Positions 5,009 to 48,424 of a stretch of DNA of 64,000 nt are shown here, piece after piece. Positions within the stretch are counted from its first letter, which is position 1. Every line of letters begins with the position of its first letter. The notes beneath the pieces were generated by a model. That model was not told the origin of the DNA. It made no database searches and saw only the letters and a program-made list of their open reading frames with translations. Source of the DNA: an uncultured Pelagibacteraceae bacterium (GTDB taxonomy: Bacteria; Pseudomonadota; Alphaproteobacteria; Pelagibacterales; AG-422-B15); NCBI GenBank assembly GCA_902526565.1, contig CABZLP010000003.1:8394-72393 (forward strand), given 5' to 3'. Both the position numbers and the translations under genes were made by a program.

Positions 5009-5083
5009 TGGAGCGAGTGAAGGGAGTCGAACCCTCGACCTAAACGTTGGCAACGTTTCGCTCTACCACTGAGCTACACTCGC
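5009..5083 (-). tRNA. tRNA-Gly (anticodon GCC), CCA encoded
   Basis: The reverse complement folds by hand into a cloverleaf: acceptor GCGAGTG/CACTCGC, D arm GCTC-AGTGGTA-GAGC, anticodon stem AAACG/CGTTT with loop TTGCCAA, variable AGGTC, T arm GAGGG-TTCGACT-CCCTT, discriminator T, CCA. Length 75 nt. Confidence 0.9.
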
Positions 5084-10647: not shown

Positions 10648-11219
10648 TGATCAGGTTTATTATTATTCTAATAATAACTTTTTTTTCGTTGAATACATCA
10701 AATGCAAGTAATGACTCAATTATTATAAAAATTCAAAACGGCTGGAACGAAATACAGACAATGTCAGGTGAGTTTTCACAGTTAGATACTAACGGCAACA
10801 TAGAGAGAGGTAATTTTTACTTTTCAAAACCGTACAAATCTAAGTTTGTTTATAAAAATAAAAATGAGGATATTGTTACAAATGAAAGCTTATTACGCAT
10901 TGTAGATAAAGAGGGTTTTCAGATTGATAGCTATGCAATTGGGGGGAATGTTCTCAAAAAACTTCTTTCTGTTAATCTAGACATTCAGAAAGAATTTGAT
11001 ATCGATTATATTAGAGAAGATGATGAGAATTTTGAAATAGGAGCAGTTATAGAGAATTATAATAATTTGAATAAATTTATTCTCACTTTTGATAAAAATA
11101 CTATAGAGCTTGAAAAGTGGGAGATTTCAGATGAAATAGGTAATAAAACTGTTTTAGAGTTTACAAAGATAAAAAAAAATATATTTATAAGCCAAAATTT
11201 ATTCGTAGTCCGTTATTAA
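10647..11219 (+). CDS. lolA: outer-membrane lipoprotein carrier protein LolA
   Basis: 190 aa with a signal peptide and a LolA-like core, SGEFSQLDTNGNIERGNFYFSKPYKSKFVY. It sits in the conserved position immediately after ftsK, with a shared stop/start nucleotide. Confidence 0.8.
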   Translation: MIRFIIILIITFFSLNTSNASNDSIIIKIQNGWNEIQTMSGEFSQLDTNGNIERGNFYFSKPYKSKFVYKNKNEDIVTNESLLRIVDKEGFQIDSYAIGGNVLKKLLSVNLDIQKEFDIDYIREDDENFEIGAVIENYNNLNKFILTFDKNTIELEKWEISDEIGNKTVLEFTKIKKNIFISQNLFVVRY

Positions 11220-11267
11220 AATAATTAGGCTACAGGCAGGTTATAAAATAAAAAATTTTCACTATTT

Positions 11268-12626
11268 ATGACGGTTAGTTCTATTATTGAACTTAAGCAA
11301 TGGCTTGGGTCAAATAAAATTTCAGAGGTAGAGTGTATTTTCCCAGACATGGCAGGGTCTTCAAAAGGTAAGATTTTACCTGTAGAAAGATTTGTTAAAA
11401 CCTTAGAAGATCAGAGTCTTAAGCTTGCTGATTCAGTTTTTGGCCAAACTGTCTCAGGTAAGTGGGTTTATGATAGTGAGGTTATTGATTATGTAGAGGA
11501 AGATCTTTTTATGACCCCTGACCTCTCGACTATTAGAAAAATCCCATGGAATAAAGAACCTACAGCTCAGATAATCTGTGACCTCGACTATAGCTCTCAT
11601 GAACCATCTAAATTGGCTCCGAGACAAGTATTAAAAAATATCATCCAGCAATTAAGTGACGAGAATGTTCAAGCAATCGTAGCTCCAGAACTAGAATTTT
11701 ATCTTTGTGAACAAAATTTAGATCCTGATCTACCTTTAAAAACACCAATTGGAAAATCTGGACGAAGAGAAACAGGAAGCAGGGTATTTGGAATTGACGC
11801 AGTTAATGAGTTCGATGCATTGACTGATGATATTTATGACTACTGTGAATTAATGAAAATTGGAGTAGATACATTAGTTCACGAGTCTGGACCCTCGCAA
11901 ATTGAAATAAATTTAAATCATGGAGATCCTCTTGCTCTTGCTGACCAAGCCTTTATGTTTAAAAGAGCTGTTAGGCAAGTGGCTTTAAAACACAATATTT
12001 ACGCAACTTTTATGGCTAAACCATACCAAGGGCAGCCAGGAAGCTCCATGCATATCCACCAAAATTTAGTTTCAACAAAATCGGGTAAAAATTTGTTTTC
12101 AGATAATAAAGGTAATAACTCAAAAGAGTTTTTTCATTTTATTGGTGGTTTACAAACATACTTACCTGATGCCATGCTATTATTTGCACCTTACGTTAAT
12201 TCATATAGAAGATTCGTTATAGATGCTTCTGCACCAATAAATACCCATTGGGGATTTGAAAATAGAACTGTTGCTTTCAGGGTTCCAACTTCCCATAATA
12301 TGTCACGACGAGTAGAAAATAGAATTCCTGGAGCTGATACCAATCCTTATCTTGCAATTGCTGCTTCTTTAGCTTGTGGTTTACTAGGTCTCAGAGAAAG
12401 AATCGAGCCAGCAAAACCTATTTCGGGAGACGCTTTTGAAAGAAGGCACAATATACCAAAATATCTTCCTGATGCTTTGAAAAGGCTAAAAGTAAGTAAA
12501 GAATTGTCTGAAAGCCTTGGTAAAGAATTTGTTACTTTATACACAGAGATTAAACAAACTGAGCATGACGCGTACCAAAACGTAATTAGTGCTTGGGAAA
12601 GAGAACATCTCCTATTGAATGTATAA
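11268..12626 (+). CDS. glutamine synthetase-family gamma-glutamyl ligase (GlnA/PuuA/GmaS-like; substrate not resolvable)
   Basis: 452 aa. GS catalytic motifs FMAKPYQGQPGSSMHIHQNL, NRTVAFRVP and ENRIPGADTNPYLAIA. Confidence 0.85.
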   Translation: MTVSSIIELKQWLGSNKISEVECIFPDMAGSSKGKILPVERFVKTLEDQSLKLADSVFGQTVSGKWVYDSEVIDYVEEDLFMTPDLSTIRKIPWNKEPTAQIICDLDYSSHEPSKLAPRQVLKNIIQQLSDENVQAIVAPELEFYLCEQNLDPDLPLKTPIGKSGRRETGSRVFGIDAVNEFDALTDDIYDYCELMKIGVDTLVHESGPSQIEINLNHGDPLALADQAFMFKRAVRQVALKHNIYATFMAKPYQGQPGSSMHIHQNLVSTKSGKNLFSDNKGNNSKEFFHFIGGLQTYLPDAMLLFAPYVNSYRRFVIDASAPINTHWGFENRTVAFRVPTSHNMSRRVENRIPGADTNPYLAIAASLACGLLGLRERIEPAKPISGDAFERRHNIPKYLPDALKRLKVSKELSESLGKEFVTLYTEIKQTEHDAYQNVISAWEREHLLLNV

Positions 12627-12629
12627 AAA

Positions 12630-13289
12630 CTATAAAATTGATCGATTAAGATAATAGCCTTTTTTTTCTTTAAACATAATTAAGTCTTTTAATTTAAGTT
12701 TAGTTTCAATTTTTTTCCTTAATGCGTATACATGTGTTTCTAAAGTATGTGTATCAATTTCCTCTCCATAACTCCAAACTTTATGCAAGAGACTTTTTTT
12801 TGAAATATATGTATTGGTATTTTGAAGTAAGTAAACAAAAATCTGACTCTCTTTTTCTGTAAATCTAAGAGAAGAAGATCTATTTGATAACTTTCTTGTA
12901 GAAGGGTCGTAAGTAAAATATTTATATCTGAGTAGCCTTTCACTGTAAATGTTTTCTTGAATAAGATTGTTTTCAATTCTTTGGCAAATATCGTTCATTC
13001 TAAATGGTACATTTAATTTTATTACTTCCAGATTAGTTTTGAAGTCCCTATTTATTAAACCTGAATCATTTATTAAAAATATTTTATTTAATACGGTCTC
13101 ACATTTTAAAATTTTATTAAAAACTTCGGTATCTACTACCACAGTTTTATATTTACTAGTTTTTAGATCTTCAATGTTTATGTTCTGAAAATAAAATGCT
13201 TTAGATATGTTTTTACTTCTTTCTACTTCAATAAAAACGCTGCTGAGACAGCGATTTTCAAAAATAAAAGGAATAATACTTTTGCCCAT
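12630..13289 (-). CDS. OmpR/PhoB-type winged-helix regulator with a degenerate receiver-like N-terminus
   Basis: 219 aa. C-terminal Trans_reg_C-like segment LRFTEKESQIFVYLLQN...LLHKVWSYGEEIDTHTLETHVYALRKKIE...KKGYYL. The N-terminal ~110 aa resembles a receiver, but the acidic pair reads FENR and the K-P-F position reads NVPF. Confidence 0.7.
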   Translation of the reverse strand: MGKSIIPFIFENRCLSSVFIEVERSKNISKAFYFQNINIEDLKTSKYKTVVVDTEVFNKILKCETVLNKIFLINDSGLINRDFKTNLEVIKLNVPFRMNDICQRIENNLIQENIYSERLLRYKYFTYDPSTRKLSNRSSSLRFTEKESQIFVYLLQNTNTYISKKSLLHKVWSYGEEIDTHTLETHVYALRKKIETKLKLKDLIMFKEKKGYYLNRSIL

Positions 13290-13809
13290 ATTAATAGTAT
13301 TTATAATACCATCAATGAACTTATTGGTAAAAAATAATCATTTATTTGTAAATGATGTGAAATTACAATGCGCAATAGGTAGTGGTGGGCTTGTAAAGAA
13401 TAAAATAGAAGGGGATTTATCGACACCAACGGGGACCTTTCGATTTAACAAAATTTATTACAGAGCAGATAGAATAAAAGAAACTAATTTTATCATTGAC
13501 TCTTCTATCATTAGAGAAAATGACGGCTGGTGCGATGATGTAAGGAGCAAATATTATAACCAATATGTCCAGTTTCCTTTTAATGAAAGTGCTGAGCGTT
13601 TATACAGAGATGATCATGTTTACGATTTGATTTGTGTATTAGACTATAATACCTCACCAATCATACCTGGGCGAGGAAGTGCAATTTTTCTTCATGTTTC
13701 AAAACCTAGTTTTGAAGGAACTGAAGGTTGCATAGCAATAGAAAGAAAGGAATTGCTCAAGATCGCTAATAAGTTAACAATTAAATCAAAAATTCATATC
13801 GAAAATTAA
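13207..13809 (+). CDS. L,D-transpeptidase (YkuD) catalytic-domain protein
   Basis: YkuD active-site motif IFLHVSKPSFEGTEGCIAI (His ... Gly-Cys). The long form (start 13207) supplies a hydrophobic signal anchor, GIILLPILIVFIIPS, but overlaps the divergent regulator by 83 nt. An alternative start at ATG 13315 lacks any export signal. Confidence 0.7.
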   Translation: MFLLLSTSIKTLLRQRFSKIKGIILLPILIVFIIPSMNLLVKNNHLFVNDVKLQCAIGSGGLVKNKIEGDLSTPTGTFRFNKIYYRADRIKETNFIIDSSIIRENDGWCDDVRSKYYNQYVQFPFNESAERLYRDDHVYDLICVLDYNTSPIIPGRGSAIFLHVSKPSFEGTEGCIAIERKELLKIANKLTIKSKIHIEN

Positions 13810-14459
13810 CTACGTTCTCCAAAGATTTTTGTGCCGATACGAATATGAGTAGCGCCACATTTTAAAGCAACCTCAAAATCGTTTGACATACCCATGCTAA
13901 GATATGGTAAATTAAAATTCTTAGCAAGGTCAGCAAGTTTCAAAAAATGTTTTTTGGGTTCTTCATTTAATGGAGGAATACACATTAACCCAACTACATT
14001 TATATTAAAATTGTTAATACATGACGAAATAAATTGTTCTGACTCAGAGAGAGCAACGCCAGACTTTTGCGGCTCATCTCCGGTATTAATTTGAATGAAA
14101 TATTCTTTGAAAATACCTTGATTATTTTCACATTCACTGAACATTTTTACAATTTTCATTCGATCCAATGAATGAATGACGTCACAACAACTATAGATAG
14201 ACTTAACTTTTCTACTCTGTATTCCACCAATGAAATGTACTTTTAGATGCGGAAAACTAGTTTTCAAATCAATCCATTTTTTCTCAACTTCTTGAATCTG
14301 GTTTTCACCAAAAGAAACATGGTTTAGTTCAATAACTTTTTTAATTTCATCAGCTGATTTTCTTTTGCTTACCGCTATCAGTTCAACATCCTTGATATTT
14401 CTATTAGCAGAAGCAACTGCATCGTGAAATTGACTAACAAATTTATTATATAAACTCAT
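13806..14459 (-). CDS. yggS: YggS-family pyridoxal-phosphate homeostasis protein
   Basis: 217 aa. Motifs LIAVSKRK (PLP lysine), FGENQIQE, HFIGGIQSRK, LSMGMSNDFEVAL and IRIGTKIFG. Confidence 0.9.
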   Translation of the reverse strand: MSLYNKFVSQFHDAVASANRNIKDVELIAVSKRKSADEIKKVIELNHVSFGENQIQEVEKKWIDLKTSFPHLKVHFIGGIQSRKVKSIYSCCDVIHSLDRMKIVKMFSECENNQGIFKEYFIQINTGDEPQKSGVALSESEQFISSCINNFNINVVGLMCIPPLNEEPKKHFLKLADLAKNFNLPYLSMGMSNDFEVALKCGATHIRIGTKIFGERS

Positions 14460-26307: not shown

Positions 26308-27609
26308 TTATTTGCCGATGCAAAAATCTTTAAAAATGACTTCAAGATACTCTTCTACATCAACGTGACCTGTTATTTTGCCAATTTCCTGAATTGCTAA
26401 TCTCAGTTCTTCAACCATGAGCTCAGAATTATTTTTCAAATCAATTGTTTTCGCATTCAACAGGCTCTGGATAGAATTTTGAACACCTAAAATATATCTT
26501 GTCTTCATTGGTATAGTATCTGAGTAACTTCCAAAATTACCTGAGACTTTATCAGAAATTAGTTTGATCAGGTGATCGATACCACTCCCTGTTGAAACGG
26601 AAATGTTGATGGCTTTATCGTATATTTTATTATCTTTATTATGCAGATCACATTTGTTTAATATGGTTAAGCGTTCATCATGAAAATTTAATTTGTTTGG
26701 GTCGTCAAATAATTCAACAACCAAATTTGCTTCATCAATTTTCTTCTTTGTAATTTCTATTCCTTTTTTTTCAATCTCATCACTTGTCTGCCTCAACCCT
26801 GCTGTGTCTGTAAAAACTACTGGAAATCCTGCAATATTTAGCCTTACTTCAATAGCATCACGCGTCGTTCCTTCTCTGTCAGATACGATTGCGACGTCTC
26901 TGTTTGCTAATAAATTTATGAGACTTGATTTCCCAACATTCGGTGTGCCTACAATAGCCACACGATATCCATCTCGCAAAATCTCTCCTTGATTGCGTCG
27001 ATTGATATGCTCATGCATCTCAGCTAAAAGTTTTTCAATTTTTTCATTTATATTTTTTAAAACATCATCAGGAATATCTTCTTCTGAAAAATCAATATCA
27101 GCTTCAAGATAAGCAACCAGTTCAATCAGAGATTTTCTCCAAGATAAGTAAAGCTTATTCAATGAGCCGTCCATCTGACTCAAAGCCTGATTGTGTTGCA
27201 GTTCTGTTTGAGCATTGATTAAATCTCCCATTGCTTCGATAGCTGTAAGATCCATCTTATTATTTATAAATGCTCTTTTTGAAAACTCTCCAGGTTCCGC
27301 AAGTTGCAGCTGGTTAATTCCTGACAAAGTTTTTAAGAGAAGGTCAACTGTTGCTTTTCCACCATGTATGTGAAACTCAACTACGTCTTCTCCAGTGAAA
27401 CTTTTTGGCTTAGCAAAGTAAACAGCTAATCCACGATCGATTAAGTTTCCATTTTCGGAATCATAAAAACTAGTCCTTGTTAATACATTGGGATCAAAGT
27501 GACTCTTGCGAGAGATGGTTTTAAGTGCAGTCAGCGCTAAGTGACCGGATACACGAACTACAGCCAGACCTGCAATTCCGCTTGCTGTTGATAGTGCAAA
27601 TATTGTCAT
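26308..27609 (-). CDS. mnmE: tRNA modification GTPase MnmE (TrmE)
   Basis: 433 aa. G domain GTPNVGKSSLIN, DTAGLR, and the C-terminal FCIGK. Confidence 0.95.
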   Translation of the reverse strand: MTIFALSTASGIAGLAVVRVSGHLALTALKTISRKSHFDPNVLTRTSFYDSENGNLIDRGLAVYFAKPKSFTGEDVVEFHIHGGKATVDLLLKTLSGINQLQLAEPGEFSKRAFINNKMDLTAIEAMGDLINAQTELQHNQALSQMDGSLNKLYLSWRKSLIELVAYLEADIDFSEEDIPDDVLKNINEKIEKLLAEMHEHINRRNQGEILRDGYRVAIVGTPNVGKSSLINLLANRDVAIVSDREGTTRDAIEVRLNIAGFPVVFTDTAGLRQTSDEIEKKGIEITKKKIDEANLVVELFDDPNKLNFHDERLTILNKCDLHNKDNKIYDKAINISVSTGSGIDHLIKLISDKVSGNFGSYSDTIPMKTRYILGVQNSIQSLLNAKTIDLKNNSELMVEELRLAIQEIGKITGHVDVEEYLEVIFKDFCIGK

Positions 27610-27643
27610 AATAAACTATGTGATTGCTGTTTAATCTAAACGA

Positions 27644-28201
27644 TTAATCCCATTTAGTCACAAAGTCACTTAATTCTAATTCGGGTATTCTTTTTTCAGA
27701 TCCTTCTGGCGTCCCGACGTATAAATAACCAAGGACTTTTTCATTTTCTTGAAGGCCTAAGTAAGAGGAAATTTTTTCATCGAGAGCTAAAGCGCCCGTT
27801 CTCCACATTCCTCCGAACTTAAGAGCGCTGAGTGCCAATAGAATATTTTGTGCTGCAGCTGCTGTTGACATAATTTGTTCTATCTCAGGAACCTTTGGAT
27901 GTTCTGTTATATGAGATATTAAGATGATTATCATTGGTGCTCGGAAAGGCGCGTTTTTATACTTTTCAACTTTTTGTTGATCGCCTCCTGCAATATGGTC
28001 ATTAGCAAATTGAGAGAATATTTCAGACAATTTTCTAATTCCATCACCTTTAACCTCTATAAACCTCGACGGCCTCAACCAAGCGTGATCTGGCGCTCGT
28101 AAGGCTGCTTTGTATACAAGCCGCATCTGTTCATCTGATGGAACAGGCTCTGAGAGCACTCTGGGTGAATTTCTTGAAATAATATTTTCTAATGCATCCA
28201 T
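27644..28201 (-). CDS. ydjA: YdjA-type NAD(P)H nitroreductase-family protein
   Basis: 185 aa, collinear with E. coli YdjA as I remember it: MDALE..., RAPDH...RP.RF, NAPFRAPMII, GGMWRTGAL, LGYLYVGTP. Confidence 0.8.
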   Translation of the reverse strand: MDALENIISRNSPRVLSEPVPSDEQMRLVYKAALRAPDHAWLRPSRFIEVKGDGIRKLSEIFSQFANDHIAGGDQQKVEKYKNAPFRAPMIIILISHITEHPKVPEIEQIMSTAAAAQNILLALSALKFGGMWRTGALALDEKISSYLGLQENEKVLGYLYVGTPEGSEKRIPELELSDFVTKWD

Positions 28202-28222
28202 ATAATATATCTTAATGTATAC

Positions 28223-28675
28223 ATGAGTTCTTATGTTTTCAAATCATTGATTGGCAATATGAAGGTTATCTCAAGTAATAATAAAATTACTGGCATTAGC
28301 CGAACTCGAAAAGCCGTTACCAACACTAAAGATAAACTATTACTTCGAGCAGCTTTTCAAATTAACGCCTATCTAGCACGCAAGCGACGGTCACTATCTT
28401 TTCCTACAAGACAGATGGGAACTCATTTCCAAAATCGGGTTTGGAACCACTTGAAAGGTGTTCCTTACGGTCACACTATAAGCTACGGTCAGATAGCGAA
28501 AAAGTTGAGGACATCTCCACGAGCAGTTGGTGGAGCACTAGGACGAAATAATTTGATAATGACAGTTCCTTGTCATAGGGTAATTGGCAAAAATGGCAAA
28601 TTAACTGGATTTACATCAGTTGGTGGCATAAGTACGAAAAAAAGGTTATTGCGTCTTGAAAAAAATAATAAGTAA
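28223..28675 (+). CDS. ogt: methylated-DNA--protein-cysteine methyltransferase
   Basis: 150 aa. Active-site motif VPCHRVIGKNG and an HTH-like ISYGQIAKKL. Confidence 0.85.
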   Translation: MSSYVFKSLIGNMKVISSNNKITGISRTRKAVTNTKDKLLLRAAFQINAYLARKRRSLSFPTRQMGTHFQNRVWNHLKGVPYGHTISYGQIAKKLRTSPRAVGGALGRNNLIMTVPCHRVIGKNGKLTGFTSVGGISTKKRLLRLEKNNK

Positions 28676-29207
28676 AAAAATAAAAAATTCTATAAATACT
28701 GTTCCCGACTTTCCTAAAAAGGGAATCATGTTCAGAGATATAACATCCTTAATAAAAAATACGAAAGTATTTAAGACGGTTGTTGACGAAATTGTTAAAA
28801 TAGCAAAAGAAAAAAAAATTAATAAAATAGTAGGCATAGACTCGAGAGGTTTTATTTTTGCAGCACCTATAGCCTATAAGATGAATATACCTCTTATTTT
28901 AGTTAGAAAAAAAGGAAAGTTACCAAGTATTTCATATAAAGTTAAATACGCTCTAGAGTATGGTTTCGATGTTCTAGAAATTAATAAAGACTCAATTAAT
29001 AAAACAGATAGAATTATGGTAATTGATGATTTAATTGCTACTGGCGGTACAGCTCTAGCAACTTCGAAACTTATCTCTAAATCTAGCTCAAAAAAAATTA
29101 ATTTTGTTTTTGTTATAGAGTTAGAAGACTTGCCTGGAGTAGCAAAGATTAAAAAATTAGGGCATACAGTAAAAACATTGTGTAGTTTTAAGGAAGAAGA
29201 AAAATGA
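28656..29207 (+). CDS. apt: adenine phosphoribosyltransferase
   Basis: 183 aa. DFPKKGIMFRDIT and the PRPP motif IMVIDDLIATGGTA. Confidence 0.93.
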   Translation: MKKIISKKIKNSINTVPDFPKKGIMFRDITSLIKNTKVFKTVVDEIVKIAKEKKINKIVGIDSRGFIFAAPIAYKMNIPLILVRKKGKLPSISYKVKYALEYGFDVLEINKDSINKTDRIMVIDDLIATGGTALATSKLISKSSSKKINFVFVIELEDLPGVAKIKKLGHTVKTLCSFKEEEK

Positions 29208-30088
29208 CCATTAAACTTGGAATCATAGGAGGTAGTGGTTTATATAACTTCGCAGAAATGAATGAAAAAAAGTGGCTACCTCGTAATGAAGGGCCATTTG
29301 GTTTTCCATCTGATGAGATATTATTTGGAAAAATAAATGAAACTGAAGTATTTTTCTTACCACGACATGGGAGAAATCATGTTTATTCTCCAACTACAGT
29401 CCCTTATAAAGCCAATATTGATGCTCTAAAAAGACTGGGATGCAATGTACTTATTTCAATTTCTGCAGTTGGATCGCTTCGTGAAGATCTTGCTCCAGGA
29501 ATGTTTGTGATCGTTGATCAATTTATAGACCGTACATTCGCAAGAGAGAAAACTTTTTTTGACAAAGAGGTAGTAGCACATGTATCTATGGCTCAGCCTA
29601 TTTGCACAAGCACCGCAAAAATAGTTATGAAAGCTGCTAGGAGTTTATCAATTAAAACTGTTTTTGGTGGAACTTATCTTGCGATGGAAGGTCCTCAATT
29701 TTCTTCATATGCTGAATCGCAATTATATCGTAGTTGGGGATGTGATGTCATTGGAATGACAAATATGCCTGAAGCAAAATTAGCAAGAGAAGCTGAAATG
29801 AGATATACATCTATTGCTATGGTGACAGATTTTGATTGTTGGCATGAAGCTGAGGGAAATGTAGAAGTAACTGATATAATTAAAGTATTACATGAAAACG
29901 CATCCAACGCTAAGCTTCTCATAAAAGCATTTGTAGAAAATTACAAAAAAGATTACTCACAAGAGATAATAGATGGAATTGACAATGTTCTTGATACCGC
30001 AATTATAACTCAAAATTTTTCAGAAGAAACTCTTATAAGATGTGGGTTAGATGCAATAGCAAGTCGGATAATTAATGCGGGTAAATAA
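29204..30088 (+). CDS. mtnP: S-methyl-5'-thioadenosine phosphorylase
   Basis: 294 aa. GIIGGSGLY, FLPRHGRNH, CDVIGMTNMPEAKLAREAE. ATGA overlap with apt. Confidence 0.9.
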   Translation: MTIKLGIIGGSGLYNFAEMNEKKWLPRNEGPFGFPSDEILFGKINETEVFFLPRHGRNHVYSPTTVPYKANIDALKRLGCNVLISISAVGSLREDLAPGMFVIVDQFIDRTFAREKTFFDKEVVAHVSMAQPICTSTAKIVMKAARSLSIKTVFGGTYLAMEGPQFSSYAESQLYRSWGCDVIGMTNMPEAKLAREAEMRYTSIAMVTDFDCWHEAEGNVEVTDIIKVLHENASNAKLLIKAFVENYKKDYSQEIIDGIDNVLDTAIITQNFSEETLIRCGLDAIASRIINAGK

Positions 30089-31151
30089 TAAAAGTTATAA
30101 ATCAATATGGATTGATGATGATACAAGAATATTCATTATTGATCAAACGTTGCTTCCTTTTACTTTCAAAATAATAGAATTAAAAACACTTGAAGATGTG
30201 ATAAACGCTATTGACAATATGCAAGTTAGGGGAGCGCCCCTGATTGGAGTAACTGCTGCGTTTGGAATGTATTTAGCCATGCAACAAAGCAATTCTAAAA
30301 TAGATCTAGATAATGCTAAAAAGCAGCTGATCGCAACAAGACCTACTGCTATAAATTTAAAATGGGCCATAAATCAAATTGAAACAGAATTATTAAGTAT
30401 TGATCCTAATCAAAGGGCGGCAGCCGCATTAGAAATAGCGAAAAAGATGAGTCTTGATGACGAGAAAGTTAATATGAAGATTGGAGAATTTGGATACAAA
30501 TTAATTGAAAATATTTACAAAAAGAAGAAGGGAACGATCAACATTTTAACTCACTGTAATGCTGGTTGGCTAGCTACAGTGGACTGGGGAACAGCTACTG
30601 CGCCTATATATAAGGCTAGAGACAACAATATACCGGTTCATGTCTGGGTCGATGAAACAAGACCCAGAAATCAGGGCTCACAATTAACTGCTTGGGAACT
30701 TCAGCACGAAGGAATTAATCATACAATAATTCCAGACAATACTGGCGGCCATTTGATGCAAAAAGGAATGGTTGACATTGTAATTGTAGGGAGCGATAGA
30801 ACAACTTTTAAAGGAGATGTTTGCAACAAAATCGGTACATATCTTAAAGCATTGGCAGCCAAAGATAACAATGTGCCTTTTTATGTTGCTCTTCCATCAT
30901 CTACAATTGATTGGGAAACTGAAAATAGTGAAAAAATTGTTATTGAAGAGAGAAGTGAAGATGAAATTCATTATATTCGAGGTAAAGACTTAAATGAAAA
31001 TATTGTCAATATTCGAATTACGCCTGATAAAAGTAGAGGATCTAACTTCGCATTCGATACTACACCATCAAAATATATATCGGGACTAATTACCGAAAAT
31101 GGCATTTGTTTAGCTAGCGAGAATGATATAAGGGATAAGAATGCGAAATAA
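30075..31151 (+). CDS. mtnA: methylthioribose-1-phosphate isomerase
   Basis: 358 aa, eIF-2B alpha/beta/delta-like. MQVRGAPLIGVTAAFG, THCNAG, ETRPRNQGSQLTAWEL, VIVGSDR. Confidence 0.9.
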   Translation: MRVNNKSYKSIWIDDDTRIFIIDQTLLPFTFKIIELKTLEDVINAIDNMQVRGAPLIGVTAAFGMYLAMQQSNSKIDLDNAKKQLIATRPTAINLKWAINQIETELLSIDPNQRAAAALEIAKKMSLDDEKVNMKIGEFGYKLIENIYKKKKGTINILTHCNAGWLATVDWGTATAPIYKARDNNIPVHVWVDETRPRNQGSQLTAWELQHEGINHTIIPDNTGGHLMQKGMVDIVIVGSDRTTFKGDVCNKIGTYLKALAAKDNNVPFYVALPSSTIDWETENSEKIVIEERSEDEIHYIRGKDLNENIVNIRITPDKSRGSNFAFDTTPSKYISGLITENGICLASENDIRDKNAK

Positions 31152-33165
31152 TTTTTCAGACAAGCTGTTGAACATGACAAAAAAGAAATCTTTGAACACT
31201 AGTATTTCTGACGATTTAATGGATCGCATGTATACGTCAAGACTGCTAGGACAAAACCCTAATTTAGTACTTCATGGGGGTGGCAATACATCTGTAAAAA
31301 GTAAGAAAAGAGATTTAGATGGAATCCTTCACAATGTTATCTTTGTAAAAGGGAGTGGCTCAGACCTATCGACAATCCAGGAAAAAGATTTCCCAGCAGT
31401 TAAATTGGATCCATTATATAAAATTATCAAAAGAAAATCTCTATCAGATGAACAAATGGTTAATTACCTGAGAAAAAATTTGATTGATGTAACGTCACCT
31501 AATCCCTCTGTGGAAACTTTAGTACATGTATCAATCGACAAAAAGTTTGTAGATCATACTCATTCGAATGCAATTTTAGAAATCACGAATCGTAAAAATG
31601 GTTTGTCTCTATGTAAAAAAATTTTTGGAGACGAGATTTCTGTAGTTCCATACGTAATGCCTGGGTTTGTTCTTGCAAAAAAAGTTGATGAAATTTACAA
31701 ACAAAATTCAAGTGTGAAAGGTCTGATACTTTATAGACATGGCATTTTTACATTTGGGGATACGGCCAAAGAATCATATTCAAGAATGATAAGTTTAGTA
31801 ACTAAAGCAGAAAAATTCTTAAAAAGCGAAAAGCAAAAAAATTTAAAAATATTAAGGCCCACTAAAAAACCATTTAAACCTCATCTTTTATCACCAATAG
31901 TACGTGGATTGGTTTCAACAGAGACAAGCTATATAGTGAAATTTAGAAGTAATAAAAAAATTCTTGATGTTATTAATTCGAAAAACGCTAAGAGTTTTCT
32001 TTCAAGGGGGGTGATAACACCTGACCACGTTCTGAGAATTAAACCAAAATTTTTGGTCATTAACGTTGATGACTGCAGAAATTTATTATCGATAAAAGAG
32101 AGAATTTCTAAAAAAATTACTGAGTTTAAAAATGACTACAAAAAGTATTTTAAAAAATACAACAATCCAAAACTTAAAAACCAAATGCTAGACCCCGTAC
32201 CCCAAATCATTGTTATTCAAAATGTAGGTGTGTTTTCTGTCGGAAAAAGCTCAAAAAATGCATTAATTAATGGTGATGTCGCTGAAATGGCGATCAAAAC
32301 AATTGGTAATTTAGAAAAGAAAACTTCATTCGAAAGTATATCACTTAAAGATATTTTTGATGTTGAATATTGGAGTCTTGAACAGGCAAAATTAAACAAA
32401 ACTTCATTACCACTATCAGGCAAAGTATCATTAATTACAGGTGGAACAGGTACTCTTGGTCTAGCTATTGCAGAAAAATTTAGGAGTATGGGTTCTGAGG
32501 TGATCTTACTTGATGTTAACAAAAAACAACTCGAAGACCAAAATCTTAGGAAAAAATTTAGCTTGTACTTATGTGATGTTACGAGAAGAGAAAGTTTTAA
32601 AAAAGTCTTAGATCGTATTTGCTTAGAGTATGGTGGACTTGATTTTGTTATCTCTAATGCTGGAAGCGCTCATCAAAGTGAAATTGCAAAACTAAATGAC
32701 TCAGACCTAAAGAAGAGTTTTGAATTAAATTTTTTTGCACACCAAATTGTTGCTTCTGAGAGTGTTGAACTAATGAAAACGCAAAATATTGGTGGTTGTC
32801 TCTTATTCAATATTTCAAAGCAAGCAATTAATCCTGGAAAAGATTTTGGGGCATATGGCACATCCAAGGCAGCATTGTTAGCTTTGTGCAAACAATATGC
32901 CTTAGAGTATGGAAGTATCAACATACGATCTAACGGGGTAAATGCTGATAGAATAGAAAGTGGGCTATTAACAAAAACTATGATTAACAAAAGATCTAAA
33001 TCAAGAAAAATCACATCAGATGAATATTTAAAAAGCAATTTGCTCAAAAAGAAGGTTCTGGCAGAAGATGTAGCAGAAGCTTTTTATAATTTGTCGATTT
33101 CAAAAAAAACAACTGCCGCTGTTTTAACAGTTGATGGTGGCAATATTGAAGCTTCTCTGAGATAA
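31141..33165 (+). CDS. bifunctional class II aldolase/adducin-domain + short-chain dehydrogenase fusion (YuxG/RhaEW-type architecture)
   Basis: 674 aa. N-terminal LVLHGGGNTSVK and zinc-ligand-like VDHTHSNAI. The C-terminal SDR has TGGTGTLGLAIA (TGxxxGxG), SNAGSA and YGTSKAAL (YxxxK). An alternative start at M12 (31174) removes the 11-nt overlap with mtnA. Confidence 0.8.
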   Translation: MRNNFSDKLLNMTKKKSLNTSISDDLMDRMYTSRLLGQNPNLVLHGGGNTSVKSKKRDLDGILHNVIFVKGSGSDLSTIQEKDFPAVKLDPLYKIIKRKSLSDEQMVNYLRKNLIDVTSPNPSVETLVHVSIDKKFVDHTHSNAILEITNRKNGLSLCKKIFGDEISVVPYVMPGFVLAKKVDEIYKQNSSVKGLILYRHGIFTFGDTAKESYSRMISLVTKAEKFLKSEKQKNLKILRPTKKPFKPHLLSPIVRGLVSTETSYIVKFRSNKKILDVINSKNAKSFLSRGVITPDHVLRIKPKFLVINVDDCRNLLSIKERISKKITEFKNDYKKYFKKYNNPKLKNQMLDPVPQIIVIQNVGVFSVGKSSKNALINGDVAEMAIKTIGNLEKKTSFESISLKDIFDVEYWSLEQAKLNKTSLPLSGKVSLITGGTGTLGLAIAEKFRSMGSEVILLDVNKKQLEDQNLRKKFSLYLCDVTRRESFKKVLDRICLEYGGLDFVISNAGSAHQSEIAKLNDSDLKKSFELNFFAHQIVASESVELMKTQNIGGCLLFNISKQAINPGKDFGAYGTSKAALLALCKQYALEYGSINIRSNGVNADRIESGLLTKTMINKRSKSRKITSDEYLKSNLLKKKVLAEDVAEAFYNLSISKKTTAAVLTVDGGNIEASLR

Positions 33166-33214
33166 CTAATTGTTATTGATTTTGTATAAAGATGAAGAGT
33201 AATTATTGGTTTGG

Positions 33215-34474
33215 TTACTTATTCATTGATTGAAAGAAATCAGAGTTATCTTTAGTTTCTTTCAATTTTCCAAGCAAGAATTCAATGGAGTCCATAGTTC
33301 CCATTGGGTTAAGAATACGTCTCAGAACATACATTTTTTGCAGTTCATCTTTATCCAGTAGTATTTCTTCTTTTCGAGTACCAGACTTGGTTATATCAAT
33401 CGCAGGATAAATTCTCTTATCAGCAACTTTTCTGTCCAATATGATTTCTGAGTTACCTGTTCCTTTAAATTCTTCAAAAATAACTTCATCCATTCTACTG
33501 CCTGTATCAATGAGGGCAGTAGATATAATCGTTAAAGAACCTCCATCTTCAATATTTCTTGCGGCACCAAAGAACCTCTTTGGTCTTTGCAATGCATTAG
33601 CATCAACACCACCAGTTAAAACTTTTCCTGAACTTGGAACAACTGTGTTGTATGCACGACCTAGTCTCGTAATTGAATCGAGCAGGATCACAACATCCTT
33701 TTTGTGTTCTACTAATCTTTTTGCTTTGTTAATAACCATTTCAGCAACTTGTACGTGACGCGATGCTGGTTCATCAAATGTTGAACTGACTACTTCACCC
33801 TTTACGGAACGTTGCATGTCTGTCACTTCCTCAGGTCGTTCATCAATTAACAATACCATCAAATAACATTCAGGGTGGTTATCTGTAATGGAGTGTGCAA
33901 TGTTTTGTAGTAGTACTGTTTTGCCCGTTCTTGGGGGTGAAACTATAAGGGCTCTTTGACCCTTACCAATTGGTGAAACCAAATCTATAACTCTCGCGCT
34001 TTGATCTTTGTCGGGCTTTTCTGTTTCTAGCTTAATTTGTTCATCAGGATATAGAGGTGTTAAGTTATCAAAGTTAATTTTATTTCTACTTTTGTCAGTA
34101 GCCTCATAATTGATAGTATCAATCTTTAATAAAGCAAAATATCGTTCACCTTCTTTAGGAGCTCTAATAGGACCTTCAACTGTATCCCCTGATCTTAATC
34201 CAAATCTCTTGATCTGACTGGGACTAACATAAATATCATCTGGACCAGGCAAATAATTTGCTTCCATTGATCTAAGAAAACCAAAACCATCTTGTAGGAC
34301 CTCTAAAACACCTTCTCCGTCTATATCCTTTTTGTTTGCTGCAAGAGATCGTAATATCTCAAACAGCATATCTTGAGTACGCATAGAACTGGCGTTTTCA
34401 ACACCCGTTTCTTCAGCATATTTTAGAAGTTCTTGTGGAGTTTTTTTCTTAAGTTCTCTTAATTTTAAGCTCAT
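33215..34474 (-). CDS. rho: transcription termination factor Rho
   Basis: 419 aa. Rho N domain, cold-shock-like RNA-binding GFGFLR, Walker [18 protein letters not shown]. Confidence 0.97.
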
Positions 34475-34654
34475 ACTTTTTTGGATATAGAATTAATTTT
34501 TTTTTTTTGGAAAGTGTAAAAGAGATTGCCTTCTAACTTTAATTTTTTATTATAGCAAGGAATAAATCTGTTAAATAAGATAGATATATTGGTACAATTA
34601 ACTTAAATTATTGAAATTATTAAATAAAGTATTACTATATTTAAATTCTAACTA

Positions 34655-48136: not shown

Positions 48137-48424
48137 ATGAAAGGTTATTGGATCGCAAAGGTAAATGTACTTCATCCCGATAAACAAAATATGTATGCTG
48201 AACTAGCTTCTAAGGCAGTGAAAAAATATGATGGGAAGTTCTTAGTGCGTGGAGGAAGTCAAGTTATTACTGAAGGAAAAGAGTACGAACGAAATGTCGT
48301 AGTAGAATACTCCTCATTTGATAATGCAAAAAAAGCCTATAACAGCAAAGAATATCAAGAGGCAAAAAAATTACTTGGTGAGGATAAGGATCGACTTTTT
48401 GCTATTGTTGAAGGTTACGAATAA
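48137..48424 (+). CDS. DUF1330-family protein
   Basis: 95 aa. The pattern KYDGKFLVRGG...VVVEYSSFDNAKKAYNSKEYQEA matches my recollection of DUF1330. Confidence 0.6.
   Translation: MKGYWIAKVNVLHPDKQNMYAELASKAVKKYDGKFLVRGGSQVITEGKEYERNVVVEYSSFDNAKKAYNSKEYQEAKKLLGEDKDRLFAIVEGYE

What the first reader, a model, noticed from the sequence alone, without database searches (positions are those of the whole stretch)
28656..33165. apt-mtnP-mtnA-(aldolase/SDR fusion): candidate fused DHAP-shunt module for methylthioadenosine disposal
Four genes are chained by overlaps: apt/mtnP by ATGA, mtnP/mtnA by 14 nt, and mtnA/fusion by 11 nt. MtnP splits MTA into adenine and methylthioribose-1-P. Apt can recycle the adenine, and MtnA makes methylthioribulose-1-P. 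None of the canonical next enzymes (MtnB dehydratase, MtnC, MtnD, or a RuBisCO-like protein) is present in this window. The operon ends instead in a 674-aa protein. It joins a class II aldolase domain (HGGGNTS, HTH zinc ligands) to an SDR (TGxxxGxG, YxxxK). This is the architecture of Bacillus RhaEW/YuxG, which cleaves rhamnulose-1-P and oxidises the resulting aldehyde. In the described DHAP shunt, a stand-alone class II aldolase cleaves methylthioribulose-1-P to DHAP plus 2-(methylthio)acetaldehyde, and a separate dehydrogenase then converts the aldehyde. A single fusion doing both steps within an mtn operon would be a compact, apparently undescribed variant. In an organism dependent on reduced sulfur it would set the fate of the MTA sulfur, as methylthioethanol or methylthioacetate rather than methionine.
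Basis: partly seen in the sequence, partly recalled or inferred. Interest (0 to 1): 0.7.

Follow-up and report, generated by a model that had tools for sequence, protein, structure and literature searches.

The report
Fused aldolase-dehydrogenase ends SAR11 methylthioadenosine operon
A marine SAR11-type bacterium chains the genes that break down the waste nucleoside methylthioadenosine to one two-domain enzyme that most likely cleaves the resulting sugar phosphate and oxidises the aldehyde released, an undescribed version of a known disposal route that would decide where that sulfur goes.

Summary
Four + strand genes (apt, mtnP, mtnA and a 674-aa class II aldolase/SDR fusion) are chained by 4-, 14- and 11-nt overlaps, and every quoted motif is present.

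The fusion is not the rhamnose enzyme RhaEW. It is about 29% identical to a rhamnose-locus enzyme and fails both curated rhamnulose models. It passes a separate, functionally unnamed NCBIfam model (NF006192).

Gene context is the main evidence:
- Of 80 species-level genomes carrying a relative, 39 have mtnA and/or mtnP within 7 kb.
- In 16 of these, mtnA or mtnP sits directly upstream on the same strand.
- All 23 Pelagibacteraceae loci have a fused speD-speE gene, which makes MTA, directly upstream on the opposite strand.
- At least 19 Rhizobiaceae/Brucellaceae replicons place the fusion beside a sugar ABC transporter and mtnK-mtnA.

All catalytic residues of both domains are invariant.

Best reading: a fused DHAP shunt. 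MtnP and MtnA make methylthioribulose-1-P or 5-deoxyribulose-1-P. The fusion cleaves it to DHAP and, by analogy with RhaEW, oxidises the aldehyde with NAD+.

Three things remain open. There is no biochemistry. I could not check whole genomes for mtnB/C/D. Some branches of the family sit in sugar or polyol clusters.

I found no prior description. This is a new variant of a known pathway.

The parts
28223..28675 (+). ogt (methylated-DNA-protein-cysteine methyltransferase). It overlaps the apt start by 20 nt. It is physically chained to the module but is not a conserved member of it.
   Evidence: Pfam DNA_binding_1 E 7.4e-30 and TIGR00589 98.6 bits. Sequence read. No ogt was found next to apt in any of 86 related loci.
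28656..29207 (+). apt, adenine phosphoribosyltransferase. It recycles the adenine released by MtnP. The start is TTG; the next ATG would remove conserved N-terminal residues.
   Evidence: TIGR01090 205.1 bits (cut-off 185.85) and NF002634 209.4 bits (cut-off 170). Start region read. apt is adjacent to mtnP in L001-L006 and in most Pelagibacteraceae loci.
29204..30088 (+). mtnP, 5'-methylthioadenosine phosphorylase (MTA + Pi -> adenine + methylthioribose-1-P). It probably also accepts 5'-deoxyadenosine; that is an inference.
   Evidence: TIGR01694 287.4 bits (cut-off 274.85); Pfam PNP_UDP_1 E 1.2e-42. ATGA overlap with apt.
30075..31151 (+). mtnA, methylthioribose-1-P isomerase (-> methylthioribulose-1-P).
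   Evidence: TIGR00512 405.3 bits (cut-off 279); Pfam IF-2B E 2.1e-67. 14-nt overlap with mtnP and 11-nt overlap with the fusion.
31141..33165 (+). The 674-aa bifunctional class II aldolase / short-chain dehydrogenase. Proposed function: methylthioribulose-1-P / 5-deoxyribulose-1-P aldolase plus aldehyde dehydrogenase.
   Evidence: NF006192 800.9 bits (cut-off 639). It fails TIGR02632 (453.9 < 567.75), NF006189 (431.2 < 634) and NF006195 (741.2 < 931). AlphaFold model: pLDDT 85.5, pTM 0.83.
31231..31812 (+). Class II aldolase domain (residues 31-224). Contains the HGGGNTS loop (45-51), KGSG (70-73), E125, and His139/His141/His200 as the metal ligands.
   Evidence: Pfam Aldolase_II E 2.7e-23. 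PDB 3m4r: E 2.1e-54 by sequence, TM 0.94 by structure. hhalign places H139/H141/H200 on E. coli RhaD H141/H143/H212. These residues are invariant in 90 family members, with two E125->D exceptions.
31828..32400 (+). Family-specific middle domain (residues ~230-420). It carries the invariant motifs TPDHVxRxK (293-301) and EYWxLEQAK (409-417). No solved structure matches it.
   Evidence: Invariant columns in A1/A2 and in 85-90 of 90 sequences. Foldseek matches of the 420-aa model cover only about 215-265 alignment columns against targets of about 190-330 residues, consistent with the aldolase domain alone.
32422..33141 (+). Classical SDR domain (residues 428-667). Contains TGxxxGxG 433-440, Asp458 (an NAD(H)-preference signature), NAG 506-508, and the catalytic residues Asn530, Ser559, Tyr572 and Lys576.
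   Evidence: Pfam adh_short E 1.4e-30 and adh_short_C2 E 2.4e-30. Foldseek matches NAD-dependent SDRs with TM about 0.8. Residues are invariant in 89-90 of 90 sequences.

Best explanation
This is an operon for disposing of the S-adenosylmethionine by-product 5'-methylthioadenosine (MTA), and probably 5'-deoxyadenosine too, by a fused version of the DHAP shunt.

Proposed steps:
1. MtnP phosphorolyses MTA to adenine and methylthioribose-1-P.
2. Apt converts the adenine to AMP.
3. MtnA isomerises the sugar phosphate to methylthioribulose-1-P.
4. The N-terminal, zinc-dependent class II aldolase domain of the 674-aa protein cleaves it to DHAP and 2-(methylthio)acetaldehyde. From 5-deoxyribulose-1-P the aldehyde would be acetaldehyde.
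5. The C-terminal NAD-type SDR domain converts the aldehyde at once. By analogy with the only characterised relatives (RhaEW), this is most likely NAD+-dependent oxidation to 2-(methylthio)acetate, or to acetate. That step pulls the aldol cleavage forward and yields NADH.

What is shown: gene identities, the overlaps, intact catalytic residues, and conserved genomic linkage to mtnP/mtnA/mtnK and to speDE.

What is inferred: the substrate of the aldolase domain, the direction and cofactor of the SDR step, and the fate of the sulfur.
For: 1. Translationally coupled operon. The same gene order with 4/14/4-nt overlaps occurs in relatives that are about 60% identical and have three different sets of flanking genes.

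2. Linkage across 80 species genomes: 39 have mtnA and/or mtnP within 7 kb. In 16 one of them is directly upstream on the same strand, and in 12 mtnA is directly downstream and convergent. Chance expectation for a single-copy gene in a 14-kb window of a 1.3-5 Mb genome is 1% or less (inference).

3. All 23 Pelagibacteraceae loci have a fused AdoMet-decarboxylase/spermidine-synthase gene, the MTA source, 86-100 bp upstream and divergent.

4. Independent MtnK variant. In Shinella, Ensifer adhaerens, Brucella anthropi ATCC 49188 and others, at least 19 replicons carry a SorC regulator, the fusion, a sugar ABC transporter and mtnK-mtnA within about 6 kb. In the two clusters I inspected (Shinella p1 and B. 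anthropi pOANT04) the fusion is the only aldolase annotated.

5. mtn-linked members are spread over the whole NF006192-type clade.

6. The Zn ligands H139/H141/H200, E125, the SDR residues N530/S559/Y572/K576 and the NAD-type D458 are invariant.

7. The RhaEW precedent: aldolase plus NAD+-dependent aldehyde dehydrogenase, no activity with NADH, and no DHAP formed without NAD+ (PMC3870299).

8. The aldehyde-handling enzyme of the known DHAP shunt is still unidentified (PMC13474568).

9. No alternative consumer of methylthioribulose-1-P is in the window.
Against: - No enzyme of the NF006192 clade has been assayed. The assignment rests on guilt by association.
- The nearest characterised enzyme is only about 29% identical and acts on L-rhamnulose-1-P. 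That substrate has the opposite C4 configuration to D-ribulose-type substrates (my own knowledge of class II aldolase stereochemistry).
- The family is not monofunctional. Relatives 46-48% identical in uncultured marine Alphaproteobacteria, and 41-42% identical in Rhizobium and Ensifer, lie in clusters with a sugar-binding protein, an FGGY or PfkB kinase, an Fe-ADH/G1PDH-like gene, UgpC and GlpD.
- 41 of the 80 loci show no mtn gene within 7 kb. Several of these are cut by contig ends.
- In organisms studied so far, the in-vivo product of the shunt is 2-(methylthio)ethanol, a reduced product, not the acid.
- Whole-genome absence of MtnB/C/D, RuBisCO-like protein and stand-alone Ald2 in this organism was not tested.
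- A 2026 preprint states that 'methionine salvage' is at least 98% complete in Pelagibacter, without saying which steps were scored.
- Two key DHAP-shunt papers could not be read.
Confidence: 0.62

Rival explanations
1. The pathway and the aldolase step are as above, but the SDR domain works as a reductase. It converts 2-(methylthio)acetaldehyde to 2-(methylthio)ethanol (or acetaldehyde to ethanol) with NAD(P)H. This would be the fused equivalent of the missing 'ADH' of the classical DHAP shunt.
For: 2-(Methylthio)ethanol is the product seen in vivo in R. rubrum, R. palustris and E. coli. Most classical SDRs are alcohol/ketone oxidoreductases, and the best structural matches are such enzymes. 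In R. palustris the alcohol can be turned into methanethiol, which would allow sulfur salvage in a sulfur-dependent cell.
Against: The characterised homologues (RhaEW) showed no activity with NADH and needed NAD+ even for DHAP formation. Asp458 is invariant and fits NAD(H) rather than NADPH (the SDR cofactor rule is from general knowledge). An aerobic heterotroph gains NADH from oxidation.
Confidence: 0.17
2. The fusion is a catabolic enzyme for some other deoxy- or keto-sugar 1-phosphate (of the rhamnulose, fuculose or polyol-derived type). Its position after mtnA reflects operon packing in a streamlined genome, not shared function.
For: Relatives of the same NCBIfam family lie in sugar or polyol clusters with FGGY or PfkB kinases and sugar ABC transporters. 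Public annotations call homologues 'rhamnose utilization protein RhaD'. Active-site residues do not distinguish mtn-linked from sugar-linked members.
Against: The window holds no sugar kinase, isomerase or transporter for such a pathway next to the gene. Linkage to mtnP/mtnA/mtnK/speDE recurs in several bacterial orders and in three different architectures, which operon packing does not explain. The protein fails the curated rhamnulose models. The sugar-linked members form two derived long branches, and the rhizobial ones pass a different equivalog model, NF006195, which mtn-linked members fail.
Confidence: 0.08
3. The class II aldolase-fold domain does not act as an aldolase. It acts as an MtnB-like dehydratase (or as an epimerase or isomerase) on methylthioribulose-1-P, and the SDR domain carries out a redox step on the product. 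That would be a new route that still regenerates methionine.
For: MtnB dehydratases, epimerases and decarboxylases share this fold and the same His triad (fold matches include L-ribulose-5-P 4-epimerase and decarboxylases). A sulfur-dependent cell would benefit from keeping the sulfur. The preprint claims that methionine salvage is retained in Pelagibacter.
Against: The only assayed members of this two-domain architecture are aldolase/aldehyde dehydrogenases. No downstream enolase-phosphatase, dioxygenase or RuBisCO-like gene was seen in the window (annotation only). In the related loci none was found among the recurrent neighbour families or the about 40 neighbouring ORFs I annotated; most single-copy neighbours were not annotated. 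The exception is B. anthropi, where a RuBisCO-like gene lies in the same cluster. No known chemistry links an SDR to the diketone product.
Confidence: 0.07

Closest known systems
DHAP shunt, MtnP variant (MtnP-MtnA-Ald2 plus an unidentified alcohol dehydrogenase) of Rhodospirillum rubrum and Rhodopseudomonas palustris
   Same: The first two enzymes are the same (MtnP, MtnA). In R. rubrum the aldolase gene is likewise clustered with mtnA and mtnP. The predicted cleavage of methylthioribulose-1-P to DHAP plus 2-(methylthio)acetaldehyde is the same, followed by immediate conversion of the aldehyde.
   Different: The aldolase here is not an Ald2 orthologue. Stand-alone class II aldolases match its N-domain only weakly: sequence E >= 0.003, 13-20% identity, TM about 0.5-0.65. 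It is covalently fused to the aldehyde-converting enzyme through a 190-residue family-specific domain. apt is part of the operon. The product is probably the acid rather than the alcohol. No MarBHDK-type route from methylthioethanol to methionine is implied.
DHAP shunt, MtnN/MtnK variant (E. coli ExPEC mtnK-mtnA-ald2; Bacillus thuringiensis drdK-drdI-drdA)
   Same: The pathway logic is the same and it probably serves both MTA and 5'-deoxyadenosine-derived sugars. The Shinella, Ensifer and Brucella anthropi clusters (ABC transporter, mtnK, mtnA, fusion) look like the E. coli arrangement for using external 5-deoxypentoses.
   Different: The window uses the phosphorylase MtnP, not a nucleosidase plus kinase. 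The fusion takes the place of stand-alone Ald2/DrdA.
RhaEW (YuxG of Bacillus subtilis, Caur_2283 of Chloroflexus aurantiacus; 'RhaD' of the Rhizobium rhamnose locus)
   Same: Same three-part architecture: class II aldolase, linker domain, SDR. Same metal and SDR catalytic residues. The biochemical precedent is ketose-1-P aldolase plus NAD+-dependent oxidation of the released aldehyde.
   Different: About 29% identity to the rhizobial rhamnose-locus enzyme. The window protein fails TIGR02632 and NF006189, which that enzyme passes. It never sits in a rha locus. It differs at H45/Y, E125/D, T140/M, Y171/W, M173/R, T293/C, N530/L and R604/A. The predicted substrate has D-erythro rather than L-threo stereochemistry (own knowledge).
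Other enzyme fusions on the methylthioribulose-1-P branch point (Tetrahymena MtnBD, Arabidopsis DEP1 dehydratase-enolase-phosphatase)
   Same: A class II aldolase-fold domain acting on methylthioribulose-1-P is fused to the enzyme for the following step.
   Different: Those fusions keep the sulfur and lead to methionine. Their partner domain is a dioxygenase or a HAD phosphatase, not an SDR.
PDB 3m4r, N-terminal class II aldolase domain of a conserved Thermoplasma acidophilum protein (function unassigned)
   Same: It is the only solved structure close to the aldolase domain: E 2.1e-54, 40-41% identity, TM 0.93-0.94.
   Different: It covers the domain only, and no function or ligand was reported in the entry title. 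No full-length structure of the family exists.

Membership tests
Bifunctional class II aldolase / SDR family (NCBIfam PRK08324 group; model NF006192) | Whole-protein score above the curated cut-off of the model | tested here: met
   NF006192 800.9 bits against a cut-off of 639, aligned end to end (1-674 on 1-685). mtn-linked relatives score 820-1162.
Bifunctional class II aldolase / SDR family (NCBIfam PRK08324 group; model NF006192) | N-terminal class II aldolase fold with a His-His-His metal site and an acidic catalytic residue | tested here: met
   Pfam PF00596. Structural match to 3m4r, TM 0.94. H139/H141/H200 align with RhaD H141/H143/H212. These residues and E125 are invariant.
Bifunctional class II aldolase / SDR family (NCBIfam PRK08324 group; model NF006192) | C-terminal classical SDR with a glycine-rich NAD site and the Asn-Ser-Tyr-Lys catalytic residues | tested here: met
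   PF00106 and PF13561. TGxxxGxG 433-440, D458, N530, S559, Y572 and K576 are conserved in 89-90 of 90 sequences.
RhaEW in the strict sense (rhamnulose-1-P aldolase / L-lactaldehyde dehydrogenase; TIGR02632, NF006189) | Score above the curated equivalog cut-offs | tested here: not met
   TIGR02632 453.9 < 567.75; NF006189 431.2 < 634. The positive control, R. johnstonii pRL11, scores 1194.8 and 1291.5.
RhaEW in the strict sense (rhamnulose-1-P aldolase / L-lactaldehyde dehydrogenase; TIGR02632, NF006189) | [quoted passage not shown] | tested here: not met
   The window has no rhaI/rhaA homologue and no FGGY-kinase homologue by tblastn; rhaB and rhaM were not queried, and none was seen when the ORFs were read by eye. 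The neighbours are apt, mtnP, mtnA and rho. The rhizobial rha locus is shown for contrast.
RhaEW in the strict sense (rhamnulose-1-P aldolase / L-lactaldehyde dehydrogenase; TIGR02632, NF006189) | Activity on L-rhamnulose-1-P giving DHAP and L-lactate | not testable with these tools
   This needs an enzyme assay.
DHAP shunt for MTA / 5'-deoxyadenosine | MTA phosphorylase (or nucleosidase plus kinase) and the isomerase MtnA are present | tested here: met
   TIGR01694 and TIGR00512 pass their cut-offs.
DHAP shunt for MTA / 5'-deoxyadenosine | An Ald2/DrdA-type stand-alone methylthioribulose-1-P aldolase (EC 4.1.2.62) | tested here: not met
   There is no stand-alone class II aldolase in the window. 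The fusion's aldolase domain is only a remote homologue of stand-alone class II aldolases: phmmer against PDB gives E >= 0.003 apart from 3m4r, and identity is 13-20%. The step would be done by a non-orthologous, fused enzyme. The module therefore works like the shunt but is not a canonical instance of it.
DHAP shunt for MTA / 5'-deoxyadenosine | The aldolase gene is clustered with mtnA and mtnP/mtnK | tested here: met
   Overlapping genes here. 39 of 80 species loci. At least 19 replicons with mtnK-mtnA.
DHAP shunt for MTA / 5'-deoxyadenosine | Formation of DHAP plus 2-(methylthio)acetaldehyde or acetaldehyde | not testable with these tools
   This needs an enzyme assay or labelled-MTA feeding.
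Canonical methionine salvage pathway (MtnB, MtnC or MtnW/X, MtnD) | Dehydratase, enolase-phosphatase and acireductone dioxygenase genes are present | tested here: inconclusive
   None was recognised in the 64-kb window (and ORFs read by eye). No profile search for these families was run. The rest of the genome could not be searched. The preprint's statement that 'methionine salvage' is complete in Pelagibacter does not define its steps.

The most novel reading that the evidence does not exclude
SAR11 and many other Alphaproteobacteria run an undescribed 'oxidative, fused' DHAP shunt. One polypeptide cleaves methylthioribulose-1-P (and 5-deoxyribulose-1-P) and oxidises the aldehyde, so MTA yields adenine, DHAP, NADH and 2-(methylthio)acetate.

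The ocean's most abundant heterotroph cannot reduce sulfate. On this reading it would still discard the MTA sulfur as a small organosulfur acid rather than rebuild methionine. That would add an unrecognised compound to the marine dissolved organic sulfur pool. It would also let SAR11 use dissolved MTA released by other plankton as a source of carbon, energy and purine.
Probability: 0.4. Interest if true: 0.8.

Novelty: new variant of a known kind. Interest (0 to 1): 0.66.

Why it matters
- **A gap in a very abundant organism.** MTA and 5'-deoxyadenosine are made by every cell and inhibit SAM enzymes, so each organism needs an exit route. I found no route described for SAR11, among the most abundant bacteria in the sea, in the literature I could search. 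Standard Ald2- or MtnB-based searches would miss this one, because the aldolase domain is only remotely related to those enzymes.
- **A candidate for a missing enzyme.** A 2026 review still calls the aldehyde-converting enzyme of the DHAP shunt 'unknown'. A covalently attached dehydrogenase is a concrete candidate for that step.
- **A sulfur question.** SAR11 needs reduced sulfur, so whether it keeps or throws away the MTA sulfur bears on its sulfur budget. It also bears on which organosulfur compounds it releases.
- **A route to experiment.** The same clade occurs in culturable, genetically tractable bacteria (Ensifer adhaerens, Brucella anthropi ATCC 49188, Shinella). The prediction can be tested without growing SAR11.
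- **An annotation fix.** It would give a function to NCBIfam family NF006192, which is now named only 'bifunctional aldolase/short-chain dehydrogenase' or mislabelled as a rhamnose enzyme.

Tried and rejected
- **Promoter and terminator scan of 27500-34600.** Hits were no more frequent than in shuffled sequence, so it says nothing about the transcription unit.
- **Rfam and tRNA scan of the window.** Only tRNA-Gly at 5009-5083 was found. There is no SAM or other riboswitch near the operon.
- **Transcript evidence.**
  - No RNA run holds this exact sequence.
  - Three metatranscriptome runs give short contigs at 90-95% identity over parts of apt, mtnP, the mtnA-fusion junction and the fusion.
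  - That shows at most that related populations express these genes. No contig spans a whole junction.
- **Whole-genome check for mtnB/C/D, RuBisCO-like protein, Ald2 and MtnN in Pelagibacterales.**
  - Not possible. The single genome-collection scan went on the fusion itself, and I had no tool-derived seed sequences for those families.
  - A search for 'SAR11' plus 'acireductone' found no paper.
- **The 'Pelagibacter, resolved' preprint.** It says methionine salvage is at least 98% complete, but the text does not list the KOs scored. I treat it as unresolved, not as refutation.
- **North et al. 2017 (PNAS) and 2020 (Mol Microbiol).** Neither is held, so I cannot exclude that they mention aldolase-SDR fusions.
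- **Profile comparison of the aldolase domain with E. coli FucA.** It gave no meaningful alignment. The comparison with RhaD gave a weak but register-consistent one.
- **Specificity-determining residues.** At the roughly 50 conserved sites checked, mtn-linked and sugar-linked members do not differ. Only the distant rhamnose enzyme does. Sequence alone therefore does not predict the substrate.
- **Genes between mtn genes and the fusion in other genomes.** Annotation found DUF1330, an aquaporin, a glyoxalase-like protein, an SDR and unknowns, with no MtnB/C/D.

Full report
**1. What is in the sequence**

The region carries five co-directional ORFs on the + strand:
- ogt, 28223-28675
- apt, 28656-29207 (TTG start)
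- mtnP, 29204-30088
- mtnA, 30075-31151
- a 674-aa ORF, 31141-33165

I read the junctions directly. apt/mtnP share ATGA, mtnP/mtnA overlap by 14 nt, and mtnA/fusion overlap by 11 nt. ogt/apt overlap by 20 nt.

Curated models confirm the names:

| Gene | Model | Score (bits) | Cut-off |
|---|---|---|---|
| apt | TIGR01090 | 205.1 | 185.85 |
| mtnP | TIGR01694 | 287.4 | 274.85 |
| mtnA | TIGR00512 | 405.3 | 279 |

The last protein has Pfam Aldolase_II at residues 31-224 and adh_short at 428-611. G+C content (0.33-0.34) matches the surroundings. The closest database protein (94% identity) comes from a Candidatus Pelagibacterales MAG. The organism is therefore a SAR11-type alphaproteobacterium.

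Nothing in the 64-kb window resembles MtnK, a second class II aldolase or SpeDE. Ten small ORFs I could not name by eye hit unrelated Pfam families or none. I recognised no MtnB, MtnC, MtnD, MtnN or RuBisCO-like protein among the window's ORFs. This rests on annotation by eye and Pfam, not on a dedicated search for those families.

**2. Anatomy of the fusion**

An AlphaFold model built from 44 homologues is confident (pLDDT 85.5, pTM 0.83). It has three parts.

- *Residues about 17-230: class II aldolase fold.*
  - It superposes on PDB 3m4r, an unassigned Thermoplasma aldolase domain (TM 0.94).
  - A profile alignment with E. coli RhaD puts His139, His141 and His200 on RhaD His141, His143 and His212. 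I know these from the RhaD literature as the zinc ligands.
- *Residues about 230-420: family-specific domain.*
  - It has no solved counterpart.
  - It carries the invariant motifs TPDHVxRxK and EYWxLEQAK.
- *Residues 428-667: classical SDR.*
  - It has TGxxxGxG, Asn530, Ser559, Tyr572 and Lys576.
  - It has an invariant Asp458 at the end of the second strand, the usual mark of NAD(H) rather than NADP(H) use (the rule is general SDR knowledge).

Across 90 family members these residues are essentially invariant. Both domains are therefore under selection as enzymes.

**3. Relationship to known enzymes**

The architecture is that of RhaEW. Rodionova et al. showed that the Chloroflexus and Bacillus proteins cleave L-rhamnulose-1-P and oxidise L-lactaldehyde to lactate with NAD+. 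They saw no activity with NADH and no DHAP without NAD+ (PMC3870299).

The window protein is not a RhaEW orthologue:
- It fails TIGR02632 (453.9 < 567.75) and NF006189 (431.2 < 634).
- It passes NF006192 (800.9 > 639), a model named only 'bifunctional aldolase/short-chain dehydrogenase'.
- The enzyme of the Rhizobium johnstonii pRL11 rhamnose locus lies next to rhaI, rhaM, rhaS and an FGGY kinase. It is 29% identical and passes the rhamnulose models as a positive control. It is a long-branch outgroup in a neighbour-joining tree.

Against stand-alone class II aldolases (FucA-like, RhaD, AraD and others) the domain is a remote relative. Sequence E-values are 0.003 or worse. Identity is 13-20% and TM is 0.5-0.65. 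It is therefore not an orthologue of the Ald2/DrdA aldolase of the described DHAP shunt.

**4. Gene context in relatives, the main evidence**

*Close relatives.* Homologues about 60% identical sit in the same order, apt-mtnP-mtnA-fusion, with 4/14/4-nt overlaps. Their flanking genes fall into three unrelated sets.

*Species-level genomes.* A scan of one genome per species returned 80 loci from Pelagibacteraceae, Rhodospirillales, Reyranella, Defluviicoccus, Magnetovibrio, Nitrospinota, Gemmatimonadota, Rhizobiaceae and others.
- tblastn with the window's own proteins finds mtnA and/or mtnP within 7 kb in 39 of the 80.
- In 16, one of them is directly upstream on the same strand.
- In 12, mtnA is directly downstream and convergent.
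- For a single-copy gene, chance would give about 1% or less (inference).

*Pelagibacteraceae.* In all 23 single-cell or MAG loci of the main 677-aa type, the gene directly upstream and divergent (86-100 bp) encodes a fused S-adenosylmethionine decarboxylase/spermidine synthase. That enzyme pair generates MTA.

*MtnK variant.*
- On Shinella plasmid p1 the order is SorC-type regulator, fusion, sugar ABC transporter, mtnK, mtnA.
- Cross-matching two plasmid searches shows the same fusion type within 3.9-6.2 kb of mtnK in at least 19 replicons of Shinella, Ensifer adhaerens, Rhizobium, Agrobacterium and Brucella anthropi ATCC 49188.
- This mirrors the E. coli mtnK-mtnA-ald2 cluster used to grow on external 5-deoxypentoses (PMC10986504), with the fusion in the place of Ald2.

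*Tree.* The mtn-linked members are spread over the whole NF006192-type clade.

**5. What weakens the case**

- The family is not monofunctional.
  - A marine group (L046, L063, L080, L082; 46-48% identity) carries the gene in a cluster with a sugar-binding protein, an SDR, an FGGY kinase, an Fe-ADH/G1PDH-like protein and UgpC.
  - Rhizobium leguminosarum carries it in a similar cluster with a sugar-binding protein, an SDR, a G1P dehydrogenase, UgpC and GlpD.
  - Ensifer and Sinorhizobium carry it with a PfkB kinase.
  - These members form two derived long branches.
  - The rhizobial ones pass a separate equivalog model, NF006195, which the window protein and all tested mtn-linked members fail.
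  - They show, however, that this scaffold can serve other ketose-1-phosphates.
- Conserved active-site positions do not separate the groups.
- 41 of the 80 loci show no mtn gene within 7 kb, some because the contig ends.
- I could not search whole genomes for mtnB/C/D.
- A 2026 preprint says 'methionine salvage' is at least 98% complete in 135 Pelagibacter genomes but does not say which steps were scored.
- No member of this clade has been assayed.

**6. Most likely mechanism**

1. MtnP splits MTA into adenine and methylthioribose-1-P.
2. Apt recovers the adenine.
3. MtnA makes methylthioribulose-1-P.
4. The zinc aldolase domain cleaves it into DHAP, which enters glycolysis, and 2-(methylthio)acetaldehyde.
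5. The SDR domain removes the reactive aldehyde. Following the RhaEW precedent and the NAD-type Asp458, I expect NAD+-dependent oxidation to 2-(methylthio)acetate, which also pulls the reversible aldol cleavage forward.

In every DHAP shunt studied, the enzymes also take the 5'-deoxyadenosine series. The same operon would then turn 5'-deoxyadenosine from radical-SAM enzymes into adenine, DHAP and acetate.

Steps 1-3 rest on curated family membership. The substrate of step 4 rests on gene context. The direction of step 5 rests on analogy.

I put about 0.6 on this reading. The alternatives are:

| Alternative | Probability |
|---|---|
| Reductase version (product methylthioethanol) | about 0.17 |
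| Unrelated sugar enzyme | about 0.08 |
| Non-aldolase chemistry leading back to methionine | about 0.07 |

**7. Novelty**

The literature I could search describes two DHAP-shunt variants, one starting with MtnP and one with MtnN/MtnK. Both have a stand-alone Ald2 and an unidentified alcohol dehydrogenase. No paper links SAR11 or Pelagibacter to the DHAP shunt, or an aldolase-SDR fusion to mtn genes. Public annotation calls these proteins 'bifunctional aldolase/short-chain dehydrogenase' or 'rhamnose utilization protein RhaD'.

I therefore rate this as a new variant of a known pathway. It arises by non-orthologous displacement plus fusion. It is present in one of the most abundant bacterial groups and widely in Alphaproteobacteria.

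**8. Verdict**

Interest: 0.66.

Noticed in passing
window 28223-28675 (+): An ogt (O6-methylguanine-DNA methyltransferase) gene overlaps the TTG start of apt by 20 nt, so it is probably co-transcribed with the MTA operon. No relative has ogt at this position.
   Followed up: partly
L091 (Brucella anthropi ATCC 49188 plasmid pOANT04) 1707-14186: The cluster reads: SorC regulator, fusion, sugar ABC transporter, mtnK, mtnA, a split transketolase (two genes) and a RuBisCO-like protein. Two possible routes for methylthioribulose-1-P (aldolase fusion, or RuBisCO-like protein plus transketolase) lie side by side. The role of the transketolase is unexplained.
   Followed up: no
L090 (Sinorhizobium meliloti plasmid pMl9) 4186-11363; hits H12 and H13: S. 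meliloti has the same SorC / ABC transporter / mtnK-mtnA cluster but without the fusion between the regulator and the binding-protein gene. Elsewhere on pSymB-like replicons there is a hit to residues 23-424 only (aldolase plus middle domain, no SDR, 37% identity).
   Followed up: no
L003 4850-5899 (-), and the same position in L008-L031, L062, L070: In Pelagibacteraceae, S-adenosylmethionine decarboxylase and spermidine synthase are fused into one protein of about 346 aa (Pfam AdoMet_dc + Spermine_synt_N + Spermine_synth). It is always divergent from the aldolase/SDR gene, with an intergenic space of only 86-100 bp. That suggests a shared control region.
   Followed up: partly
L008-L031 about 9030-14000 (between the fusion and mtnA): In Pelagibacteraceae the spot between the fusion and mtnA is a variable insertion site. 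Different genomes hold a CoA-binding protein plus crotonase, a PLP enzyme plus DUF1015, an SMR transporter, asparaginase II, or a block with BKACE, an FAD monooxygenase, an extradiol dioxygenase and a TRAP binding protein.
   Followed up: partly
L003 10087-11523 (-); also L062: A 478-aa protein with a hydrophobic N-terminus and no Pfam match lies between mtnA and mtnP in some Pelagibacteraceae genomes.
   Followed up: no
L046, L063, L080, L082 (1-9030); L088 1-11135: A sister branch of the fusion in uncultured marine Alphaproteobacteria closes a cluster of a sugar-binding protein, an SDR, an FGGY (xylulokinase-like) kinase, an Fe-ADH/G1P-dehydrogenase-like protein and UgpC. Rhizobium leguminosarum has a similar cluster without the FGGY kinase. 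The substrate of this presumed polyol or deoxysugar pathway is unknown.
   Followed up: partly
L032, L033, L040, L043, L045, L049, L050, L054, L058, L074, L076 (upstream of the fusion): In Reyranella, Enhydrobacter and related genomes the fusion has no mtn neighbour within 7 kb. A 167-aa phosphoribosyltransferase (gpt-like) lies nearby upstream: directly upstream in several loci (e.g. L040, L049), with a zinc-type alcohol dehydrogenase/quinone oxidoreductase gene in between in L050. It is a purine-salvage neighbour, like apt here.
   Followed up: partly
window 31828-32400 (residues 230-420 of the fusion): The middle domain has no structural counterpart in the PDB, yet it contains some of the most conserved motifs of the family (TPDHVxRxK, EYWxLEQAK). 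The first motif is modelled with low confidence in the full-length model (pLDDT < 50 at residues 293-300). It may be a mobile loop that serves one of the active sites.
   Followed up: partly
window 33110-33133 (-): A terminator-like hairpin with a T-run on the minus strand lies inside the 3' end of the fusion ORF, just downstream of the convergent rho gene (33215-34474, -). The two convergent transcription units may overlap.
   Followed up: no
L059 4928-5566 (+); window 48137-48424 (+): In the Magnetovibrio MAG a tandem DUF1330 protein lies between mtnP and mtnA. The window also has a small ORF that looks DUF1330-like by eye, 15 kb from the operon.
   Followed up: no
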